Shown: positions 7,723-62,965, counted from the first letter of the stretch. The stretch: DNA of 64,000 bases from Eledone cirrhosa (GCA_964016885.1 CAXHJY010000212.1:1-64000); one strand, 5' to 3'. Numbers and translations: made by a program. Notes: generated by a model not told the origin, from the letters alone.

Positions 7723-7799
7723 TTTCTATATTAAATATATATACTCTGCTATGTATTGAGTACTTTACTTAGTGTGGTTACCCCCGATTGAACCTGGGA

Positions 7800-8401
7800 T
7801 ACACGCTGCGCATTGGCGTTTCCTTGAGGCTCGGCCTCTGCGTCTGTCAGCCACACCAATGTCGCTGCGGATCCACCATGGACTCTTTCGGCCTCCACCC
7901 GCTTTCCTGTCGCCACAGTGCCGGCCGCCTTCCACGCCATGCTGCCCTCAACGAGGTCATAAAGCATGGCTTGGACGCTGCGGGCTTTCCTTCCCAGCTC
8001 GAGCCGGTGGGGCTGGACCGAGTGGACGGCCAAAGGCCAGATGGCATGACCATCTTCCCGTTCCGCAGGATGATACTTGCACCGACACTTTCTGCAGCTG
8101 CAACCTGGTGCAGTCTGCGACTAACCCAAGTTCTGCTACACGTCGGGCTGAGGAGGCCAAACTCCTCAAATACCGGTCGCTCTCCGACAGGTTTGCGGTT
8201 GTACTCCTGGCAGTGGAGACTTCTGGTGTCCTCGGCCCTAGGGCTACCTCACTACTAACCACCATAGGCGCTGAGCTGGCCAGCCGCAGGTGTGAACCCT
8301 GCGAGTTGGAGTGGCTTTTCCGGCGCGTTTCCCTTGCTGTCCTCTGGGGAAACGCCTTCTCCATCCTGTCCACCGGGGCTGTGGGGGCCCCCATCGCGTA
8401 A
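7800..8401 (+). mobile_element. 3' fragment of CRE-clade non-LTR retrotransposon (zinc knuckle + restriction-like endonuclease), frameshifted
   Basis: [17 protein letters not shown]...RHAALNEVI...[10 protein letters not shown], then in another frame TCTDT...AEEAKLLKY...AVETSGVLG...RVSLAVLWGNA, the typical CRE RLE C-terminus. Confidence 0.8.
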
Positions 8402-42482: not shown

Positions 42483-43199
42483 AATGTGTAGCAACAAGGG
42501 CGGTGCCCCAGCATGGCCTCAGCCGGATGGCTGAAACAGGTAAAAGAGTAAAAGAGTATACCAAACACATATATATGCCGTTTTCAGAAATAATGAAATA
42601 TATTTATTGATAATAACAACAATTCAAAATTGCAGGTCTGTTTGGGAACAGAGTTCAAATTGACCAATCAAAATACAAAAAGTTTATACAGTTAGGTGTG
42701 TGTATATATATGTAAGTAACTTCGTTCCCAGATATGCATAAATATATATATTCACATGCATACGCATGCCAAAAAGATGTATGTAAATACAAAAATTCAA
42801 GGCTAATGTCTCTGTATGTTTATAATCTACAGATAAAATACGTATACACATATAAATATAAAATAAATATATACACACATTCATATACTCACACATATAC
42901 GTACATTCACACACACACACACGCGTATACGCATAAACATACACACAACCACGAACATACATACACACATACACCCCCACACACATATATATGTGTGTAT
43001 ATACTATTATCATAAGCATATGGACATTAATGCGCGCACATAAACACTGCCACACATATTTAGATCCAGATACAGAAAGTAGGTGGGGGGGGGGGAGAAG
43101 AGGTCAGTATTCACTGGTGTCAACAGACTGCCTATTTATAAATGTATCTATAAACTTAGAAATAAAAAGAAAAGAAAAAGAAAAAAGAAATATATCAAG

Positions 43200-45936: not shown

Positions 45937-46497
45937 TTAATTAGGTTTATAATATTTAAATGTTTTTCTTAGTTTATGATTACACGATATAATTAATTCC
46001 TGTCGTTTATTTAATAGGATATACTTAGATTTCATCATTTCAAATAGTTCTTGGGAACATAATCTACATTCATTTCTATTATTTTGATAAGGGGTGGCTC
46101 TTTTGAGCACACTCCAGGTCAAATCATATTCTATATTCTTATTTTTATAACTATTGATTTTTTCTGCTAGAGATGTTGTATTAGCCAGTGCGGCATTTTT
46201 AAAACTATGTTTGTGGGTATTAAACCTTGCCTTAAAATTGTTAGAAGTAGCTCCTATATATGAGCAAATAGAATCTTTAGTTTTAACATTACATTTATAA
46301 ACTATGTTGTTAACAAGACAATTTCCTTTTAATGGGCAGTTTGCTTTGTTTCTACAGTTACAACCTTTCGTTAATTCTGTATTTGAGGAGATATTATGGT
46401 TAGTTTGATGTATTGGTGGTATACTTATGGTATTCTTACATTTATATGCATTATAGGCACTTATATTTTGTTTTATGTTATTTGTTGTTGAGTATGA
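45937..46497 (-). pseudogene. GIY-YIG endonuclease C-terminal domain of a Penelope-like element
   Basis: Hand translation: SYSTTNN...CNCRNKANCPLKGNCLVNNIVYKCNV...YIGATSNNFKARFNTHKHSF...W...CRLCSQE...LLNKRQE...CNH; no RT present. Confidence 0.9.
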
Positions 46498-46745
46498 GTA
46501 TATTTTTATATATGTATATGTATCTCTATTTATATATGTATATATGTGTATGTATATCCCTTTATCTATGTATGTCTGAGTTGTGTGAGCGTGTGGTGGT
46601 GTTTGTTTGTATGTATATACGCATACATGGATGTGTATGTATGTGTATATATGCGTATATGTATGTGTGTATGTGTGTGTGTGTATATATGTATGTCTAT
46701 GTATGAGTATGTATGTGTGTGTATGTATGTGTGTATATATATGTA

Positions 46746-46792
<47 letters not shown>

Positions 46793-53721: not shown

Positions 53722-54212
53722 CTACTGTCCATATATTTTGAGAAAGGTCCCAGCTCTAAGGTGTCTGCATGTCCCGAAGAAGTCGGTTCTGAGGTTTATC
53801 AGGCCGCTTCCACCTCTTAGTATCTCGAGGGTCTCGTTCAGGCATAGTTTGCATATGCAAGATCCCCCTTTATCGGGTGGTACTTTCCTGATTATGTACC
53901 AGGCCAGAGAGTATGGGGTCCTGTCCAGCTTAAGCTTCCAGATCAGGTCGGAGAGAGCTGTGCTTTTCCTTTTGGCCTCCTTCTTGAATGAATGGCGATG
54001 GTTGTACCAGCGGTCCTTAAAGCTCGTTGATGTGGCTCCTATGTAGAGGTGTTCGGAGTTGGGGGTTTTAACCCTACAACCGTACACTATCTTCTTCTTG
54101 AGACATTCATTACCAAGGGGGCATGATTCGGGGTTTCTACAGTTGCAGAGGGTGGGCGGCCTCTGCGTGCTTAGATTAGGGTTCTCATTATGTGTTACAT
54201 GTTGGTCTTCCC
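53722..54212 (-). pseudogene. GIY-YIG endonuclease domain of a Penelope-like element, 5'-truncated
   Basis: CNCRNPESCPLGNECLKKKIVYGCRV...YIGATSTSFKDRWYNHRHSF...TALSDLIWKLK...CKLCLNE...INLRTD...CRH. Confidence 0.92.
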
Positions 54213-55584
54213 AACATAATCAGGAAAGTACCACCCGATAAAGGGGGATCTTGCATATGCAAACTATGCCTGAACGAGACCCTCGAGATACTAAGAGGTG
54301 GAAGCGGCCTGATAAACCTCAGAATCGACTTCTTCGGGACATGCAGACACCTTAGAGCCGGGACCTTTCTCAAAATATATGGACAGTAGCAACACAAGAA
54401 GATGTGAACTCCCCTCAAGCTATAGGGACTTCTACAGAACATGAAAACACCTCTCGGCCAGACCTCCCTCAAGCTATATGGACAATTACAACACCCTAGG
54501 TTGTGAAATCCCCTCAAGCCATAGGGAACAACCCAGGCGGAGCAGACACCATGATAGCCTAGAGACAGAATCGGACACAGCCATAATAATCTGGCCAACA
54601 TCTATAACACAAACACTTTTAATTTACCAGATTTCTGACTTTAAAGTTCCAATCTTAAATCTTGATTTCTCTATATTAATTTGTTATTTGTTTTCTGCCC
54701 TCTTCACTGTATAACCTTATATTTATTTTAAGTTGAGATAGATTATAACACAAACACATTGAATATCTCATCTTAACATCTTGTATCATACCAATCTATC
54801 CAACATATTCTGACCTTGAGATTGGTTATAGCACACACACACACACACACACTTTATCCTACATTATTTCTCACTTCTCCATATACATTATCATTACTTT
54901 TTCACCAATCTCTCATTTACTCTTTATTCTTTATTCTCTATTTATTTATTTATTTATTTTCAAATTACACAAATTATATTAATTATTTTATTTTATTATA
55001 TTATTTATTTATCTTCTGTTTTCTTCATTTATTGCCTTATATTTCTTCATATACATGAAATAACCCCCCCCCCCCCGCCACCACCACTACGATGGTGGCG
55101 GGTGGGATGAAGAGAAAACACAAACTGAATACTTCTAAATTGTTAGCAGCAGCAAGATATAAGCTGACCACTACAACAACAACAGTACCAAAATAATGGT
55201 GGAGGTCAAATGTACTGAACAATAGCAGGCATAAACACTACAGGGAGCCTCACCCCAGAAAGAATTCTATAGACTTCTGACTGAGGAATGCTCTCAGAAC
55301 TGAACAATGGGAAGTTTGACACATTTTTTGATATTTTGTTCCTTCAACACCTTGTCCCTTCTACCATTTTATCAATTTTTAAGCTAACTCCAACAATGAA
55401 AACACCAATAACTGACCAATGAGAGGAGAAGGGGACCTGTGACACGAAAATTCGTTTGTTTGAATTCATATGACTCCAGTTCCCCAGTGAATTAACAACC
55501 CAGCAAGGAACTGGGCATATCAGAGTATTGACAATATCATACACCTAAACAACATATGTACTTGTCTATACCATACTAATTCAA

Positions 55585-57742: not shown

Positions 57743-58261
57743 TATATACATATATATATATATACATATATATATATACATATATATATATATACATATA
57801 TATATATACATATATATATACATATATATATATATACATATATATATACATATATATATACATATATATATATACATATATATATATACATATATATATA
57901 CATATATATATACATATATATATACATATATATATACATATATATATATACATATATATACATATATATATACATATATATATACATATATATATATACA
58001 TATATATATACATATATATATACATATATATATACATATATATATACATATATATATACATATATATATATACATATATATATATACATATATATATATA
58101 CATATATATATATACATATATATATATACATATATATATACATATATATATACATATATATATACATATATATATAGATATATATATATACATATATATA
58201 TAGATATATATATATACATATATATATATACATATATATATACATATATATATACATATAT
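55787..58261. repeat. (TA)n/(TATATATACA)n microsatellite, 2.5 kb
   Basis: Direct inspection. Confidence 0.97.
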
Positions 58262-58740
58262 AGTTGAATATACAGTTGAGCAGTTGAAGTATAAGGACGT
58301 GTTTTTACTTCTCTCCCCGAGTAAGCAGCAAGTCACACAGCCACAAAACAAAACCACAAGACAAAACCAAACAAACAAAAATTGACCGGTTAATACATTT
58401 ACATACATCTATATTATTATATATTTGAAAATTAACCGGTTAATACATTTACATACATCTATATTATTATATATTTGAAACCACGTGTTTTCGAACTTGT
58501 GAGTACATTTTCCTTTAACTACAAATTATTATTATATACTTTCGTCTTTTCATTAACTTAATTAATTTCAAATAACCAGAATATACATATATATATATAT
58601 ATACTCATATTTATATATATACTCTTCTCACTCACACACAAGAAAAACAAAAAACAAAAATAAATCAAAAAATAAATTTAAAAAAAATATATATATATAT
58701 TGAAATACTTAACTAAAACACACACACACTCAAAACTAGA

Positions 58741-59859
58741 ATGGCTAACCAGCCAAAATCCAAACAGAACTGGTCTGATAATGAAATCGACATTCTAATA
58801 AACACATGGCATTGCCTTTCCCAAACAGAAGACATAGATGCTTCATCTCTGAACGCCATTGCTAAACGTACAGTTCAATTTTTGAAAACTCGATCTGAAC
58901 AACAGATTCAAAATAAATTAAAGCAAATCGAAATTGCTTTTAAATTAATCAATAAACATTTGGATAAACTACGGTGTGTTTTTTCTTCTTCGAATGCTGT
59001 CCAGCAGCAGCAACAGCAGCTACAACAACAACAGCAACAACAGCAACAACAACAACGACAACAACAGTGTGAACCACTCCTTGATTCATCAACAATGGCC
59101 GATCTACTAAATGAAACTATTGACCCCCCAGTAGCCTCTGTCTCACAGCATGAAACGCCACATCCTATCTCTCGCCCAGCAGTCCAATCATCACCACTGC
59201 CAACATCTCTGCCTACTACTACTACTACTACTACAACATTTTTGTCTACTGCTATGTCAAGGAATTTACCTTCTAATACCAGAACAAGAACTCTCCCTCC
59301 CACAGTCCACAAAGGTCGTCAAATCCTACCCAAACCATCATCTACACCTCTCACAACACACACACCCACATACCCACCCACTCGAAACCCCATCATTTGC
59401 CGCTACTCTCTACGCTATAGAATATGTACGGATAGTGGCTGCAAATTCACCCATTTACCTAAGACAAAACGATCTATCCCCACAAACAGCCACCACCATA
59501 ATACATACTCTAATTTAACACCAACACAACCACCAATAACTCAAACAAGGAATCCACAAATCTGCCGCTTTTCCCTGCGAGACAGATTGTGTTTAGACCG
59601 GGATTGTCCCTTTACCCATCTCCCGGGGACCCGTCGGACAAATGAAAATAAAATTAAAAATAAAAGCAAAAACAAAAACCATAACCTACATAAAAATAAC
59701 CACTACCACAGTCACCAACAGTCTTCTAAACAGGAAACTTCTTCCTCTTTTTTAGCCATAATGAATCTGGCAAAAGAACTGGAAAAAAACATTCGAGCTA
59801 TCACCCAGCACCACCCTCCACTATCACCCCACTGCACAAACTCCCATTGCTGCCATTAA
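58741..59859 (+). CDS. LINE-B ORF1: Myb/SANT-like N-terminus, polyQ, two CCCH fingers
   Basis: WSDNEIDILINTW...RSEQQIQNKLKQI; CRYSLRYRICTDSGCKFTH and CRFSLRDRLCLDRDCPFTH. Confidence 0.85.
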   Translation: MANQPKSKQNWSDNEIDILINTWHCLSQTEDIDASSLNAIAKRTVQFLKTRSEQQIQNKLKQIEIAFKLINKHLDKLRCVFSSSNAVQQQQQQLQQQQQQQQQQQRQQQCEPLLDSSTMADLLNETIDPPVASVSQHETPHPISRPAVQSSPLPTSLPTTTTTTTTFLSTAMSRNLPSNTRTRTLPPTVHKGRQILPKPSSTPLTTHTPTYPPTRNPIICRYSLRYRICTDSGCKFTHLPKTKRSIPTNSHHHNTYSNLTPTQPPITQTRNPQICRFSLRDRLCLDRDCPFTHLPGTRRTNENKIKNKSKNKNHNLHKNNHYHSHQQSSKQETSSSFLAIMNLAKELEKNIRAITQHHPPLSPHCTNSHCCH

Positions 59860-62800
59860 CAAACAAACAAATTAACAACACACCAAAACAATTAAAACCA
59901 TCCACTCTCGCCTCTACATTTTTGCTTAACGCCCAAGGCATCAGCCCTTCCACCAATACTCAAAAGTGGAAGATCAAATTCACGGAGGACTGGATTGATG
60001 TCCATCCAAACCACATCCCTTTCTTCGTCCTCACTGAAACCCATCTCAGTAACCTCCACTTGGAAGCCGAGGTGAAAGTGAAAAATTTCAAAGCCATCCG
60101 TGCTGATCGCGCTGGCAGAAGAAAGGGCGGAACTGCCATTTATGTCCATAATTCTTTCTCAACAGAGGCTATGAACATATTCACTAATGGATACTGTGAG
60201 GCAGTCACTGTATTCAGTCAAATCAACAACCTATTAGTAGTTGGGCTCTATAGGCCACCCCAAACGCCTGTACCATGCTTCAAGGAATGCCTCAACAGCA
60301 TAAAGTGTTTCATCCAAGAGTGTCACCCTGACAACATCTTAATGATGGGGGACTTCAACCTCCCCGGAGTTGACTGGTCCACAAACAGCCTGCCACCAGG
60401 TTCTTCTGCCTCAACCTCTGACAGGGAAGCTGTGGAATCGCTTCTTGACTTCATGGATGATTTCTTCCTATCCCAACTGGTGCTCGAACCAACGAGGTGC
60501 CACAAAAACGTCCTAGACTTAATTTTCAGCAATCACACTGACAATATCCACAATATTGCAGTGGAGAAAACTCTACTCTCTGATCATGACATGGTTCTCT
60601 GTGATCTGAGATTCCACCGTCCAATATACAAACCCAATGTCCATCCGTTTGACGCTATGGATTTCCACAATGCAAACTGGGAAGCGATCAGTCATGATCT
60701 TGCACATGTCGACTGGTCCTTCACGCACACTCATACACCCACTAACATCAAAAAGTCCTGGCAGACATTTGTGGACACTGTTACAAACATATGTGCTAAA
60801 CACACCCCATTAAGAACTATAAACAAATCTAAGAGCAGAATCCCTAGAAATAGAAAAACGCTCATCAGAAAAATTAAGAGAACAAACAAAAAAATCAACA
60901 AGCTGAAATACTATCAGCAGCAACACATCAACTTGACTGCCATTTCATCACTAGAGATTAAAAAACATAACCTCCAAAACAACATAATGTCCCTCATCAA
61001 CAATCAGAGAAGAGCTGAAGAGGCCTGGGCCATTGAGAAGATCAAACTCAATCCCAAAGTGTTCTTTTCATTTGCAAAAAAACACAAAATCACTGGCTCT
61101 ACTGTTGGCCCTCTAATTGATGAAAATGGCACTCTTCAAGACAATGCTAAAACCATGGGTGAGATACTGCAGAAACAATACTGCTCTGTTTTCAGCAATC
61201 CTGATATGGCCGATCTGGGCTGTATCGGCGATGTTACTCCCCATTACGCCTTATCGGACATAACGTTTGGCGCCCCTGATGTATTGGCGGCAATAAAGGA
61301 AATCAAGCATAATTCAGCAGTAGGTCCCGATAGGTTCCCTGCTTGTGTCTTGAAGGCGTGTCAACACCAACTTGCATCTCCTCTTGCCAATCTGTGGCGG
61401 AACTCACTGGATGCTGGATATGTGCCAGAAAACCTTCTATCCCAGTCTGTTGTCCCAGTTTTCAAAAAGGGAAACAAATCCCTTGCCGTGAATTACCGTC
61501 CAATCTCACTCACCTCTCATATCATTAAGGTATTTGAGAGAGTGGTGAGATCGCGAATGACCCACTTCCTTGAGAGTAACAATATGCTGAACTCCAACCA
61601 GCATGGATTCCGTAATGGAAGGGATTGCCTGACGCAGCTACTGCATCACTTTGATGACATTTTGAGAGCCTTGGGAGAGGGTTCCAACACTGATGTTATC
61701 TACCTTGATTTCAGCAAGGCCTTTGACAGGGTTGATCATAACATTCTACTGAGAAAGCTGTCCAATATTGGTGTCACTGGAAAGCTGCTGCAGTGGATCA
61801 AGAGCTTCCTGTCAAACAGAACCCAACATGTTGTAGTTGAGGGAGTCAAATCAAGCCCAGCCAAAGTCAGTAGTGGGGTCCCACAAGGCACTGTGTTGGG
61901 CCCACTTCTCTTCATCATCTATATTAATGACATCATTGACATCATCAAACACAGCAACATTAAAATTTTCGCTGATGATTCCAAGCTCCAAAAGGTCATC
62001 AATGGCGTGGATGACCGGATAAGCCTTCAGTCAGACCTACTGGCTGTTACCCAATGGGCGGAAAAGAACAACATGTTACTGAACGAAGACAAATTCGAAC
62101 TGATCCACTTTGGAAAAGAGGATGCTCTGAAACTCCCGTACTCCCTTCCCTCCGGGGAAACTCTCGTGGCATCTAACAACATCAGAGACTTGGGAGTAAC
62201 CGTGGACAGCAAAATAAGCTGGACCACGCATATAAGCAGCAAAGTTGACATGGCCCGCAGAATGTGTTCCTGGATCCTCAGAACCTTCCAGTCGAGAGAT
62301 TCCCGCACCATTATCCTTCTCTTCTCTACTTTTGCCCGACCACACCTTGAATACTGTTGTCCACTGTGGTCTCCCCACACGAAACAAAGTATCATGAAAC
62401 TTGAAGCTCCTCAAAGGGCAATCACGAAAAAGATAGATGGCATGTCAGACCTTGACTACTGGGGTCGATTAGAAAACCTGAAACTTTACTCACTCCAACG
62501 TCGCCGTGGGCGTTATATTATCTGCATGATGTGGAAAATGTTCCATCATCACTGCCCAAATGATGTTGGCATCGCCTTCAAGATACACCCAAGGCTTGGG
62601 CCCCGTGCTATCCGTCCCATTCAAAAATCTAAATCGCAACTCATAACAACAATACGGCACAATTATTTCACCTCAATCGGCACAATTATTTCACCTCAAT
62701 CGGCCCTGCTCTCTTCAACATCACACCAGGACACGTCAAAACAGAAACTGACCACACAAAATTCAAGAAGTCTTTGGACAAATTCCTCCAAGTAATGCCG

Positions 62801-62878
62801 GACAAACCACCCACACCCGGATATGTCTCCGCAAACAGTAATTCTCTTCTCGAATGGGCCATGGTGCCCAAATCCTGA
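59847..62878 (+). CDS. LINE-B ORF2, APE + RT; frame open from 59730; C-terminus frameshifted by a 23-bp duplication
   Basis: NAQG, TETHL, YRPP, GDFN, LDL, SDH; [34 protein letters not shown]; ancestral stop at 62876-62878. Confidence 0.95.
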
Positions 62879-62965
62879 ATTGAAAGACTTCGCCAGGTGG
62901 TGCTATTAAGTTAGACATGGCCTGGGCCAATACTGGCCAAAACATTTCAAAGTTATTCAAAGTTA

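What the first reader, a model, noticed from the sequence alone, without database searches (positions are those of the whole stretch)
59727..60173. LINE-B: ORF2 reachable through a retroviral-type -1 slippery site (T_TTT_TTA)
Seen: ORF1 reads tcT TTT TTA gcc (heptamer 59748-59754, correctly phased as X_XXY_YYZ). The -1 frame has a stop at 59727-59729, then stays open through the heptamer into APE-RT. The first ORF2 ATG (60171) lies downstream of the NxxG, TET and GG endonuclease motifs, so initiation there would delete catalytic residues. Established: U_UUU_UUA is the HIV-1 gag-pol slippery sequence, whereas studied LINEs (L1, SART1) make ORF2 by reinitiation or translational coupling. Inference: this family makes an ORF1-ORF2 fusion by programmed -1 frameshifting. 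No strong 3' stimulator is visible here. Alternative: cttcctcttttttag is a splice acceptor.
Basis: partly seen in the sequence, partly recalled or inferred. Interest (0 to 1): 0.85.

Follow-up and report, generated by a model that had tools for sequence, protein, structure and literature searches.

The report
HIV-type frameshift site in animal LINEs
A family of jumping genes (LINE retrotransposons) and six distant relatives all keep the same seven-letter slippery sequence that HIV uses, exactly at the entry to a second gene that mostly has no usable start codon, so the copying enzyme is likely made by ribosomes slipping back one base, a route not yet tested for animal LINEs in the papers searched.

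Summary
In detail: T_TTT_TTA (59748-59754) is in phase in ORF1, the -1 frame opens six codons earlier and runs into endonuclease-reverse transcriptase, and its first ATG lies 81 codons past the first endonuclease motif. It is not a chance feature of one copy. Seven LINE families whose endonucleases are only 27-52% identical (three in this genome, one being the other LINE in this window; four from metagenome contigs) all carry T_TTT_TTA_G in the same phase with the -1 frame open to the endonuclease; 2 of 39 distant LINE loci do. Among 147 related ORF1 proteins, 140 have Phe-Leu here; the residue before is never one lacking a T-ending codon (0 of 140) and the one after nearly always has a G-starting codon (130 of 140). 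Spliced or T-slipped retrocopies are not enriched: 599 of 630 copies keep the exact site. No 3' RNA stimulator is conserved. Best reading: programmed -1 frameshifting at an inherently slippery U6A heptamer gives a minor ORF1-ORF2 fusion (about 80%). This is inferred from conservation; no RNA, ribosome or peptide evidence was obtained. Precedent: Dictyostelium TRE5-A/TRE3-A are stated in a review to need a -1 frameshift.

The parts
58255..62965 (+). LINE-B element (5' limit approximate, flanked by microsatellites); member of a young family of at least 630 copies
58741..59859 (+). ORF1 (372 aa): weak Myb/SANT-like N-terminus below Pfam cut-off, poly-Q, two CCCH fingers, C-terminal amphipathic helix starting at Phe-Leu
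59398..59454 (+). first CCCH finger of ORF1, matching the third finger of the triple-CCCH ORF1 family
   Evidence: hhalign probability 94%
59563..59619 (+). second CCCH finger of ORF1
59727..59729 (+). last stop in the -1 (ORF2) frame before the heptamer
59748..59755 (+). slippery heptamer T_TTT_TTA plus conserved G; predicted -1 frameshift site
59754..59927 (+). -1 frame linker (low-complexity, no ATG) between heptamer and endonuclease; overlaps the last 36 codons of ORF1
59928..60596 (+). APE endonuclease domain from the NxxG motif on
60171..60173 (+). first ATG of the ORF2 frame, inside the endonuclease
61470..62201 (+). reverse transcriptase (Pfam RVT_1, E 1.7e-31)
62657..62702 (+). 23-nt tandem duplication that breaks the C-terminal frame of ORF2 in this copy
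62946..62965 (+). 3' tail of two 10-nt tandem repeats
38764..39522 (+). LINE-A ORF1 (5'-truncated), one CCCH finger matching the first finger of the family
   Evidence: hhalign probability 96%
39330..39337 (+). LINE-A slippery heptamer T_TTT_TTA plus G, same phase
39252..42482 (+). LINE-A ORF2 frame (-1), 37% identical to LINE-B ORF2; first ATG 39552 lies after the NxxG motif at 39522

Best explanation
LINE-B and six diverged relatives keep a phased U_UUU_UUA_G at the entry to a -1 ORF2 that mostly lacks a usable AUG, and they likely make their endonuclease-reverse transcriptase as a minor ORF1-ORF2 fusion by programmed -1 ribosomal frameshifting. Shown: the site, its phase, its conservation, the open -1 frame, the missing ATG. 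Inferred: most ribosomes read Phe-Leu in frame and finish ORF1p with its C-terminal helix; a few per cent slip back one base (Phe-Leu-Ser or Phe-Phe-Ser here), read a 60-217 codon low-complexity linker and continue into APE-RT, giving a fusion of roughly 1,350-1,400 aa in family B that keeps the zinc fingers but loses the helix. Because no 3' structure is conserved, the slip would rest on the heptamer's own slipperiness and possibly on slow decoding of the rare UUA codon, which would set the high ORF1p:ORF2p ratio a LINE needs.
For: (1) 7 of 7 testable families have T_TTT_TTA_G in phase, APE identities 27.5-52.3%; 2 of 39 distant LINE loci do (Fisher p 3e-6 with the discovery family left out). 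(2) Given the amino acids, pooled codon use (TTT 36% of Phe, TTA 9.7% of Leu) gives 0.010-0.018 per family, 8e-12 over the six non-discovery families. (3) The -1 frame is stop-free from heptamer to endonuclease in all seven, while upstream in ORF1 it has 6-43 stops in six of them (the seventh has only 45 codons of upstream sequence, none a stop); codon-shuffle chance of all six non-discovery overlaps staying open about 1e-5; the last -1 stop lies 0, 2, 2, 5, 6 and 26 codons before the site. (4) No ATG before the NxxG motif in 6 of 7; no CTG/GTG/TTG/ACG either in 2 of 7. (5) Protein fingerprint: 140 of 147 ORF1 cluster representatives with a parsable CCCH have Phe-Leu after the fingers; 0 of 140 have K/Q/E/M/W before it against 33 of 90 for other Phe-Leu pairs in the same proteins, 130 of 140 have G/D/E/A/V after it against 18 of 90; the other hydrophobic helix positions vary freely. 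(6) 599 of 630 family-B copies keep the exact site; 5 have one more T, 4 one fewer. [quoted passage not shown]
Against: No direct evidence at RNA, ribosome or protein level. No conserved 3' stem-loop or pseudoknot: only L065 (z -3.8) and L069 (z -2.2) fold better than shuffles, family B does not. One family (L062/L063) has an in-frame ATG 14 codons before the NxxG motif. ORF1's stop lies 2-71 nt before the NxxG codon in all seven families, which also suits reinitiation. S/D/N before and E/D after Phe-Leu are also what a helix N-cap favours, and the 150 proteins were ranked by a profile that contained the Phe-Leu columns (in the 40 whose best stretch stopped short of it: 0 of 40 and 35 of 40). 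Ten of 15 close metagenome loci did not reach the site and could not be tested; DNA for the 150 proteins was not obtained. The families share ancestry, so the p-values overstate independence; the group's tree support is weak (90/45). The 4-6% figure is from another sequence context in vitro.
Confidence: 0.8

Rival explanations
1. ORF2 is made by termination-reinitiation at a non-AUG codon close to the ORF1 stop, as proposed for L1, and Phe-Leu is kept only as protein sequence.
For: ORF1 stop lies 2-71 nt upstream of the NxxG codon in 7 of 7 families; 4 of 7 have CTG/GTG/TTG within four codons of it. L1 tolerates replacing the ORF2 ATG by sense codons (PMC1965478 passage); SART1 and L1 ORF2 depend on ORF1 translation (PMC2881922 passage).
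Against: Does not explain T-TTT-TTA codon choice (8e-12), the exclusion of K/Q/E/M/W before Phe-Leu, or a stop-free -1 frame of 60-217 codons from the heptamer. The stop position is expected anyway once the overlapping frame enters the constrained endonuclease (inference). Two families have no near-cognate codon among those scanned.
Confidence: 0.08
2. TTTTTTAG is a 3' splice acceptor; a minor spliced RNA joins an ORF1 donor to the ORF2 frame.
For: The site with its conserved G is a good acceptor, and family B has 10 pyrimidines in the 15 nt before it. RNA-level splicing was not tested.
Against: LINE proteins tend to copy the RNA that made them (PMC1965478 passage; not tested for this group), so spliced copies should be common: 599 of 630 keep the site, 1 of 630 has a non-T four bases before the exon start, none of 8 inspected of the 31 others is spliced (point changes, shorter T runs, 5' truncations into unrelated DNA), and 58 of 58 copies align unbroken over the junction. 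The other six families have 3-8 pyrimidines in those 15 nt, a YTNAY branch motif occurs in 1 of 7, and no C is tolerated in the six T positions across families, which an acceptor would allow.
Confidence: 0.05
3. RNA polymerase II slips on the T6 run and adds one U, giving an in-frame fused mRNA without any ribosomal slip.
For: Homopolymer run at the right place; 5 copies with seven T exist and 4 of these 5 read on far into ORF2.
Against: With cis preference the seven-T form should dominate new copies; it is 5 of about 630, matched by 4 five-T copies. Fixed phase and the fixed terminal A are ribosomal features.
Confidence: 0.04
4. An IRES-like element or leaky scanning starts ORF2 inside the overlap; the heptamer is part of that element.
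For: IRES-type starts have been suggested for non-LTR ORF2 in general (PMC3894237, parts 1-2 read); L062/L063 has a usable ATG.
Against: No conserved structure up- or downstream; linker length varies from 60 to 217 codons and is not conserved in sequence.
Confidence: 0.03

Closest known systems
HIV-1 gag-pol -1 frameshift (U_UUU_UUA + stem-loop)
   Same: Identical heptamer followed by G, RNA-binding zinc-finger protein upstream, RT-bearing frame at -1, rare UUA codon (PMC6547452 passages).
   Different: Non-LTR element with APE endonuclease, no protease or integrase; CCCH rather than CCHC fingers; no conserved 3' stem-loop.
Alphavirus 6K/TF -1 frameshift (Semliki Forest virus)
   Same: Same U_UUU_UUA site conserved across a whole group; FLS/FFS products as predicted for family B (PMC6771820 passages).
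   Different: RNA virus structural protein; has a probed 3' stem-loop; about 15% efficiency.
Dictyostelium TRE5-A / TRE3-A
   Same: APE-type non-LTR elements stated to require a -1 frameshift for ORF2 (one sentence in the review PMC5911963).
   Different: Amoeba, tRNA-gene-targeted, other clade; the primary paper (PMC364087) was not held, so I could not see whether a slippery site or an experiment backs the statement.
SART1 (UAAUG coupling) and mammalian L1 (AUG-independent reinitiation)
   Same: Bicistronic LINE RNA, ORF2 dependent on ORF1 translation (PMC2881922, PMC3894237, PMC10275272 passages).
   Different: Separate ORF2p started at or after the ORF1 stop; here ORFs overlap by 36-201 codons from the heptamer, no stop-start overlap with an in-frame AUG, fusion predicted.
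CR1/L2 lineages of the Jockey superfamily (Metcalfe and Casane 2014, PMC4120745)
   Same: APE + RT ORF2, PHD finger in many ORF1s (weak PHD hits in 3 of 10 proteins), short tandem 3' tail (recalled as a CR1/L2 trait).
   Different: The words CCCH, frameshift and overlap occur 0 times in that paper's main text; a PHD + triple-CCCH + helix ORF1 is not among the types in the passages read.
Drosophila HeT-A
   Same: Non-LTR element whose gag needs a frameshift (PMC5009743 passage).
   Different: Frameshift lies within gag; no RT encoded.

Membership tests
Programmed -1 ribosomal frameshift signal | X_XXY_YYZ heptamer in phase with the upstream ORF | tested here: met
   T_TTT_TTA in 7 of 7 families
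Programmed -1 ribosomal frameshift signal | -1 frame open from the heptamer into a functional ORF with no other evident entry | tested here: met
   open in 7 of 7; no ATG before NxxG in 6 of 7
Programmed -1 ribosomal frameshift signal | site conserved beyond amino-acid needs | tested here: met
Programmed -1 ribosomal frameshift signal | 3' stimulatory stem-loop or pseudoknot 5-9 nt downstream | tested here: not met
   hairpins in 2 of 7 families only, none in family B; U6A can slip 4-6% without one
Programmed -1 ribosomal frameshift signal | measured frameshifting or trans-frame peptide | not testable with these tools
   needs reporter, ribosome profiling or MS
APE-type non-LTR retrotransposon (LINE) | ORF2 with APE endonuclease then RT | tested here: met
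APE-type non-LTR retrotransposon (LINE) | dispersed copies with variable 5' truncation and a simple-repeat 3' tail | tested here: met
CR1 clade (versus L2, Crack, Daphne and kin) | RT phylogeny with named reference elements | not testable with these tools
   no named LINE references on hand; 'CR1-group' is recalled from motifs, and the tree holds unnamed loci only
SART1-type translational coupling | ORF1 stop overlapping an in-frame ORF2 AUG | tested here: not met
   no ORF2-frame ATG at the ORF1 stop in any of 7
Spliced LINE transcript (3' acceptor) | retrocopies or reads lacking an intron that ends at the AG | tested here: inconclusive
   no spliced retrocopy found; RNA reads not examined

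The most novel reading that the evidence does not exclude
A whole, widespread group of animal LINEs (2,475 ORF1 clusters at 50% identity match its triple-CCCH profile at E<=0.001) has independently arrived at the retroviral Gag-Pol strategy: a bare U_UUU_UUA_G, with no RNA stimulator, yields an ORF1-ORF2 fusion that is the working retrotransposition enzyme, and the rate may be tuned by tRNA-Leu(UAA) supply or by the element's own CCCH protein.
Probability: 0.6. Interest if true: 0.85.

Novelty: new variant of a known kind. Interest (0 to 1): 0.76.

Why it matters
How LINEs translate ORF2 is a long-standing open question, with worked examples only for reinitiation-type routes (SART1, L1) and 2A skipping. 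A conserved, seven-base, directly mutable signal makes a third route testable with a simple reporter. It would mean that ORF2p in this group carries ORF1's zinc fingers (and PHD where present), which bears on RNP assembly and targeting; that ORF2 annotations starting at the first ATG lack catalytic residues; and that U6A can serve as a natural frameshift signal without a stimulator across many animal genomes.

Tried and rejected
Word-indexed protein search with ORF1 found nothing and with the endonuclease only 2 proteins. Viral and prokaryote collections held no relatives. Sequencing-run search: no RNA holder listed (6 runs); no read-level view of the junction was obtained, so splicing and expression are untested at RNA level. 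Own-genome protein searches returned only families A, B and C; other families may exist. Atlas: ORF1 gave only sub-0.9 leads to unnamed zf-CCCH clusters; ORF2 gave generic APE-RT clusters; neither names the clade. A conserved 3' stimulator was sought and not found. Trans-splicing with a leader-supplied AUG was considered and dropped: in family B the first codons after the AG in that phase are CCA TAA (from the sequence; the leader idea is recalled). Locus L067 was dropped as truncated just 3' of the expected site, and nine more close loci did not reach it. 23 of 79 rows were left out of the tree for short APE matches. Primary papers on SART1 (PMC1190309), L1 (PMC1356112) and DRE/TRE5-A (PMC364087) were not held. 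Earlier-findings searches by place and by the first word set returned nothing.

Full report
Observation. The window holds a LINE from about 58255 to 62965 between microsatellites. ORF1 runs from ATG 58741 to TAA 59859; a second frame, -1 to it, is open from 59730 to 62795 and encodes APE endonuclease and reverse transcriptase. ORF1 reads tcT TTT TTA gcc, so TTTTTTA at 59748-59754 is phased as X_XXY_YYZ; the -1 frame has its last stop at 59727-59729; NAQG, TET and GG precede the first ATG at 60171. This copy has a 23-nt duplication near the end of ORF2 and is probably dead.

The family. The host assembly is about 3 Gb; the junction query had 1,481 candidates, 40 scored, at 99% identity. All 30 loci fetched share the junction, and so do 30 of 30 loci picked by the zinc fingers alone. 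So the arrangement is the family's own, not a mutation in one copy; because the family is young this says little about selection.

Diverged relatives. The other LINE in the window (family A, ORF2 37% identical) has AAT TTT TTA GTG at 39330, the same phase, a -1 ORF2 and its first ATG after the NxxG motif; 60 of 71 loci with the anchor keep the site, older copies and some repeated places included, and the codon before Phe varies (AAT, CAT, AGT) while its T stays. A third family, C, found with a triple-CCCH query, has it in 30 of 30 loci with the -1 frame opening two codons earlier. A metagenome scan gave 76 loci. Of 15 close ones, five (four families: L062/L063, L064, L065, L069) reach the expected place and all have T_TTT_TTA_G in phase; ten are cut or truncated before it. 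In L069 the -1 frame begins exactly at the heptamer. Of the other 61, 39 had enough upstream sequence and 2 have a phased TTTTTTAG. The seven families are 27.5-52.3% identical in the endonuclease and fall in one weakly supported group of 15 rows (90/45) in a tree of 56 of 79 rows. The single fingers of A and B match the triple-CCCH profile.

Is it more than protein conservation? With pooled codon use the chance of NNT-TTT-TTA given the residues is 0.010-0.018 per family, 8e-12 for the six non-discovery families; the -1 frame stays open for 60-217 codons to the endonuclease, about 1e-5 by codon shuffling of the six overlaps. These numbers treat related families as independent and so overstate. 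A full-library profile search found 2,475 ORF1 clusters at E<=0.001, best 150 listed. Three had no parsable finger; 140 of the other 147 have Phe-Leu after the fingers, and of the seven without, several are short or fused remnants and two look intact. Before Phe-Leu, residues with no T-ending codon (K, Q, E, M, W) occur 0 of 140 times, against 20-36% at the five positions further up and 33 of 90 at other Phe-Leu pairs; after it, residues with G-starting codons occur 130 of 140 times against 18 of 90. A helix N-cap could explain part of this, and the profile contained these columns; His, Tyr, Ala, Val before and Gly after fit a codon constraint better.

Rivals. Splicing: 630 exact matches to the 24 nt after the AG, 599 preceded by TTTTTTAG, one with a non-T at -4; the 8 inspected of the 31 others are point changes, shorter T runs or 5' truncations; 58 of 58 copies align unbroken across the junction, though half were chosen by a junction-spanning query. 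The argument leans on cis preference, stated for L1 and perhaps most such elements (PMC1965478, passages) and untested here. Polymerase slippage: 5 seven-T against 4 five-T copies. Reinitiation: the ORF1 stop lies 2-71 nt before the NxxG codon in all seven, one family has a usable ATG, and several have near-cognate codons; this route is not excluded but leaves the heptamer and the open linker unexplained.

Against or missing. No 3' stimulator is conserved. U6A gave 4-6% baseline -1 frameshifting without added stimulator in lysate (PMC3458567, passages), and UUA decoding modulates the HIV and SFV sites (PMC6547452, PMC6771820, passages); TTA is 9.7% of Leu codons in these elements. No RNA, ribosome or peptide data were obtained.

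What is known. Ten full-text searches found no paper describing a slippery site in an animal LINE of this kind, judged from listings and abstracts plus the passages read. The frameshifting review PMC5009743 (passages; first 300,000 of 449,034 characters held) names only HeT-A, TART and L1 among non-LTR elements. PMC2881922 and PMC10275272 (passages) and PMC3894237 (parts 1-2 of 3) discuss reinitiation, IRES and 2A. PMC4120745 (passages) never uses CCCH, frameshift or overlap in its main text; its supplements were not looked at. PMC5911963 (passages) states that Dictyostelium TRE5-A and TRE3-A require a -1 frameshift; the primary paper was not held; PMC5006619 (passages) added nothing on this. 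Subscription journals and Repbase Reports were not searched, so an earlier mention is possible. The label 'CR1-group' is recalled, not tested against named references.

Verdict. Real feature, conserved at the nucleotide level across a large LINE group; it works like a retroviral gag-pol signal by the sequence criteria, lacks the usual stimulator, and has not been measured. Probability of programmed -1 frameshifting about 0.8; new variant of a known kind; interest 0.76.

Noticed in passing
window 42500-42560 and 62890-62965: LINE-A and LINE-B share a 3' motif (GGYGGTGC...CATGGCCT...TGGC..AAACA) before different short tandem tails, a likely conserved recognition element for the RT.
   Followed up: no
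window 58741-59000 and P0005-P0154: ORF1 N-termini differ within the group: weak Myb/SANT-like region in family B (E 0.0035, below cut-off), weak PHD hits in several relatives, while the CCCH fingers (1, 2 or 3) and the Phe-Leu helix are kept. The triple-CCCH module has no good Pfam model although 2,475 clusters match it.
   Followed up: partly
L115:530-545, L113, L101, L107, L097, L099, L109: Distant LINEs with another ORF1 type also overlap ORF2 at -1; L115 and L113 have a phased TTTTTTAG and 18 of 39 have some phased X_XXY_YYZ, but the phase excess is small (20, 14, 11) and sister loci do not share the site.
   Followed up: partly
L306-L310: Five family-B copies have seven T at the site; in four the ORF1 frame then reads 176-510 codons on into ORF2. 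Could be copying or assembly errors.
   Followed up: partly
window 53725-54219 (-) and 45940-46788 (-): Frames resembling the GIY-YIG end of Penelope-like elements (motifs recalled, not searched).
   Followed up: no
window 7760-8400 (+): Broken frames with an RPDG motif resembling the restriction-like endonuclease end of CRE/R2-type non-LTR elements (recalled).
   Followed up: no
window 27944-28604 (+): Fragment resembling a gag of an LTR retrotransposon (recalled).
   Followed up: no
L065:138-790: Unusually long dual-coding overlap: 201 codons open in both frames, with a hairpin pair starting 7 nt after the heptamer (z -3.8); the best candidate in the set for a classical stimulator.
   Followed up: partly
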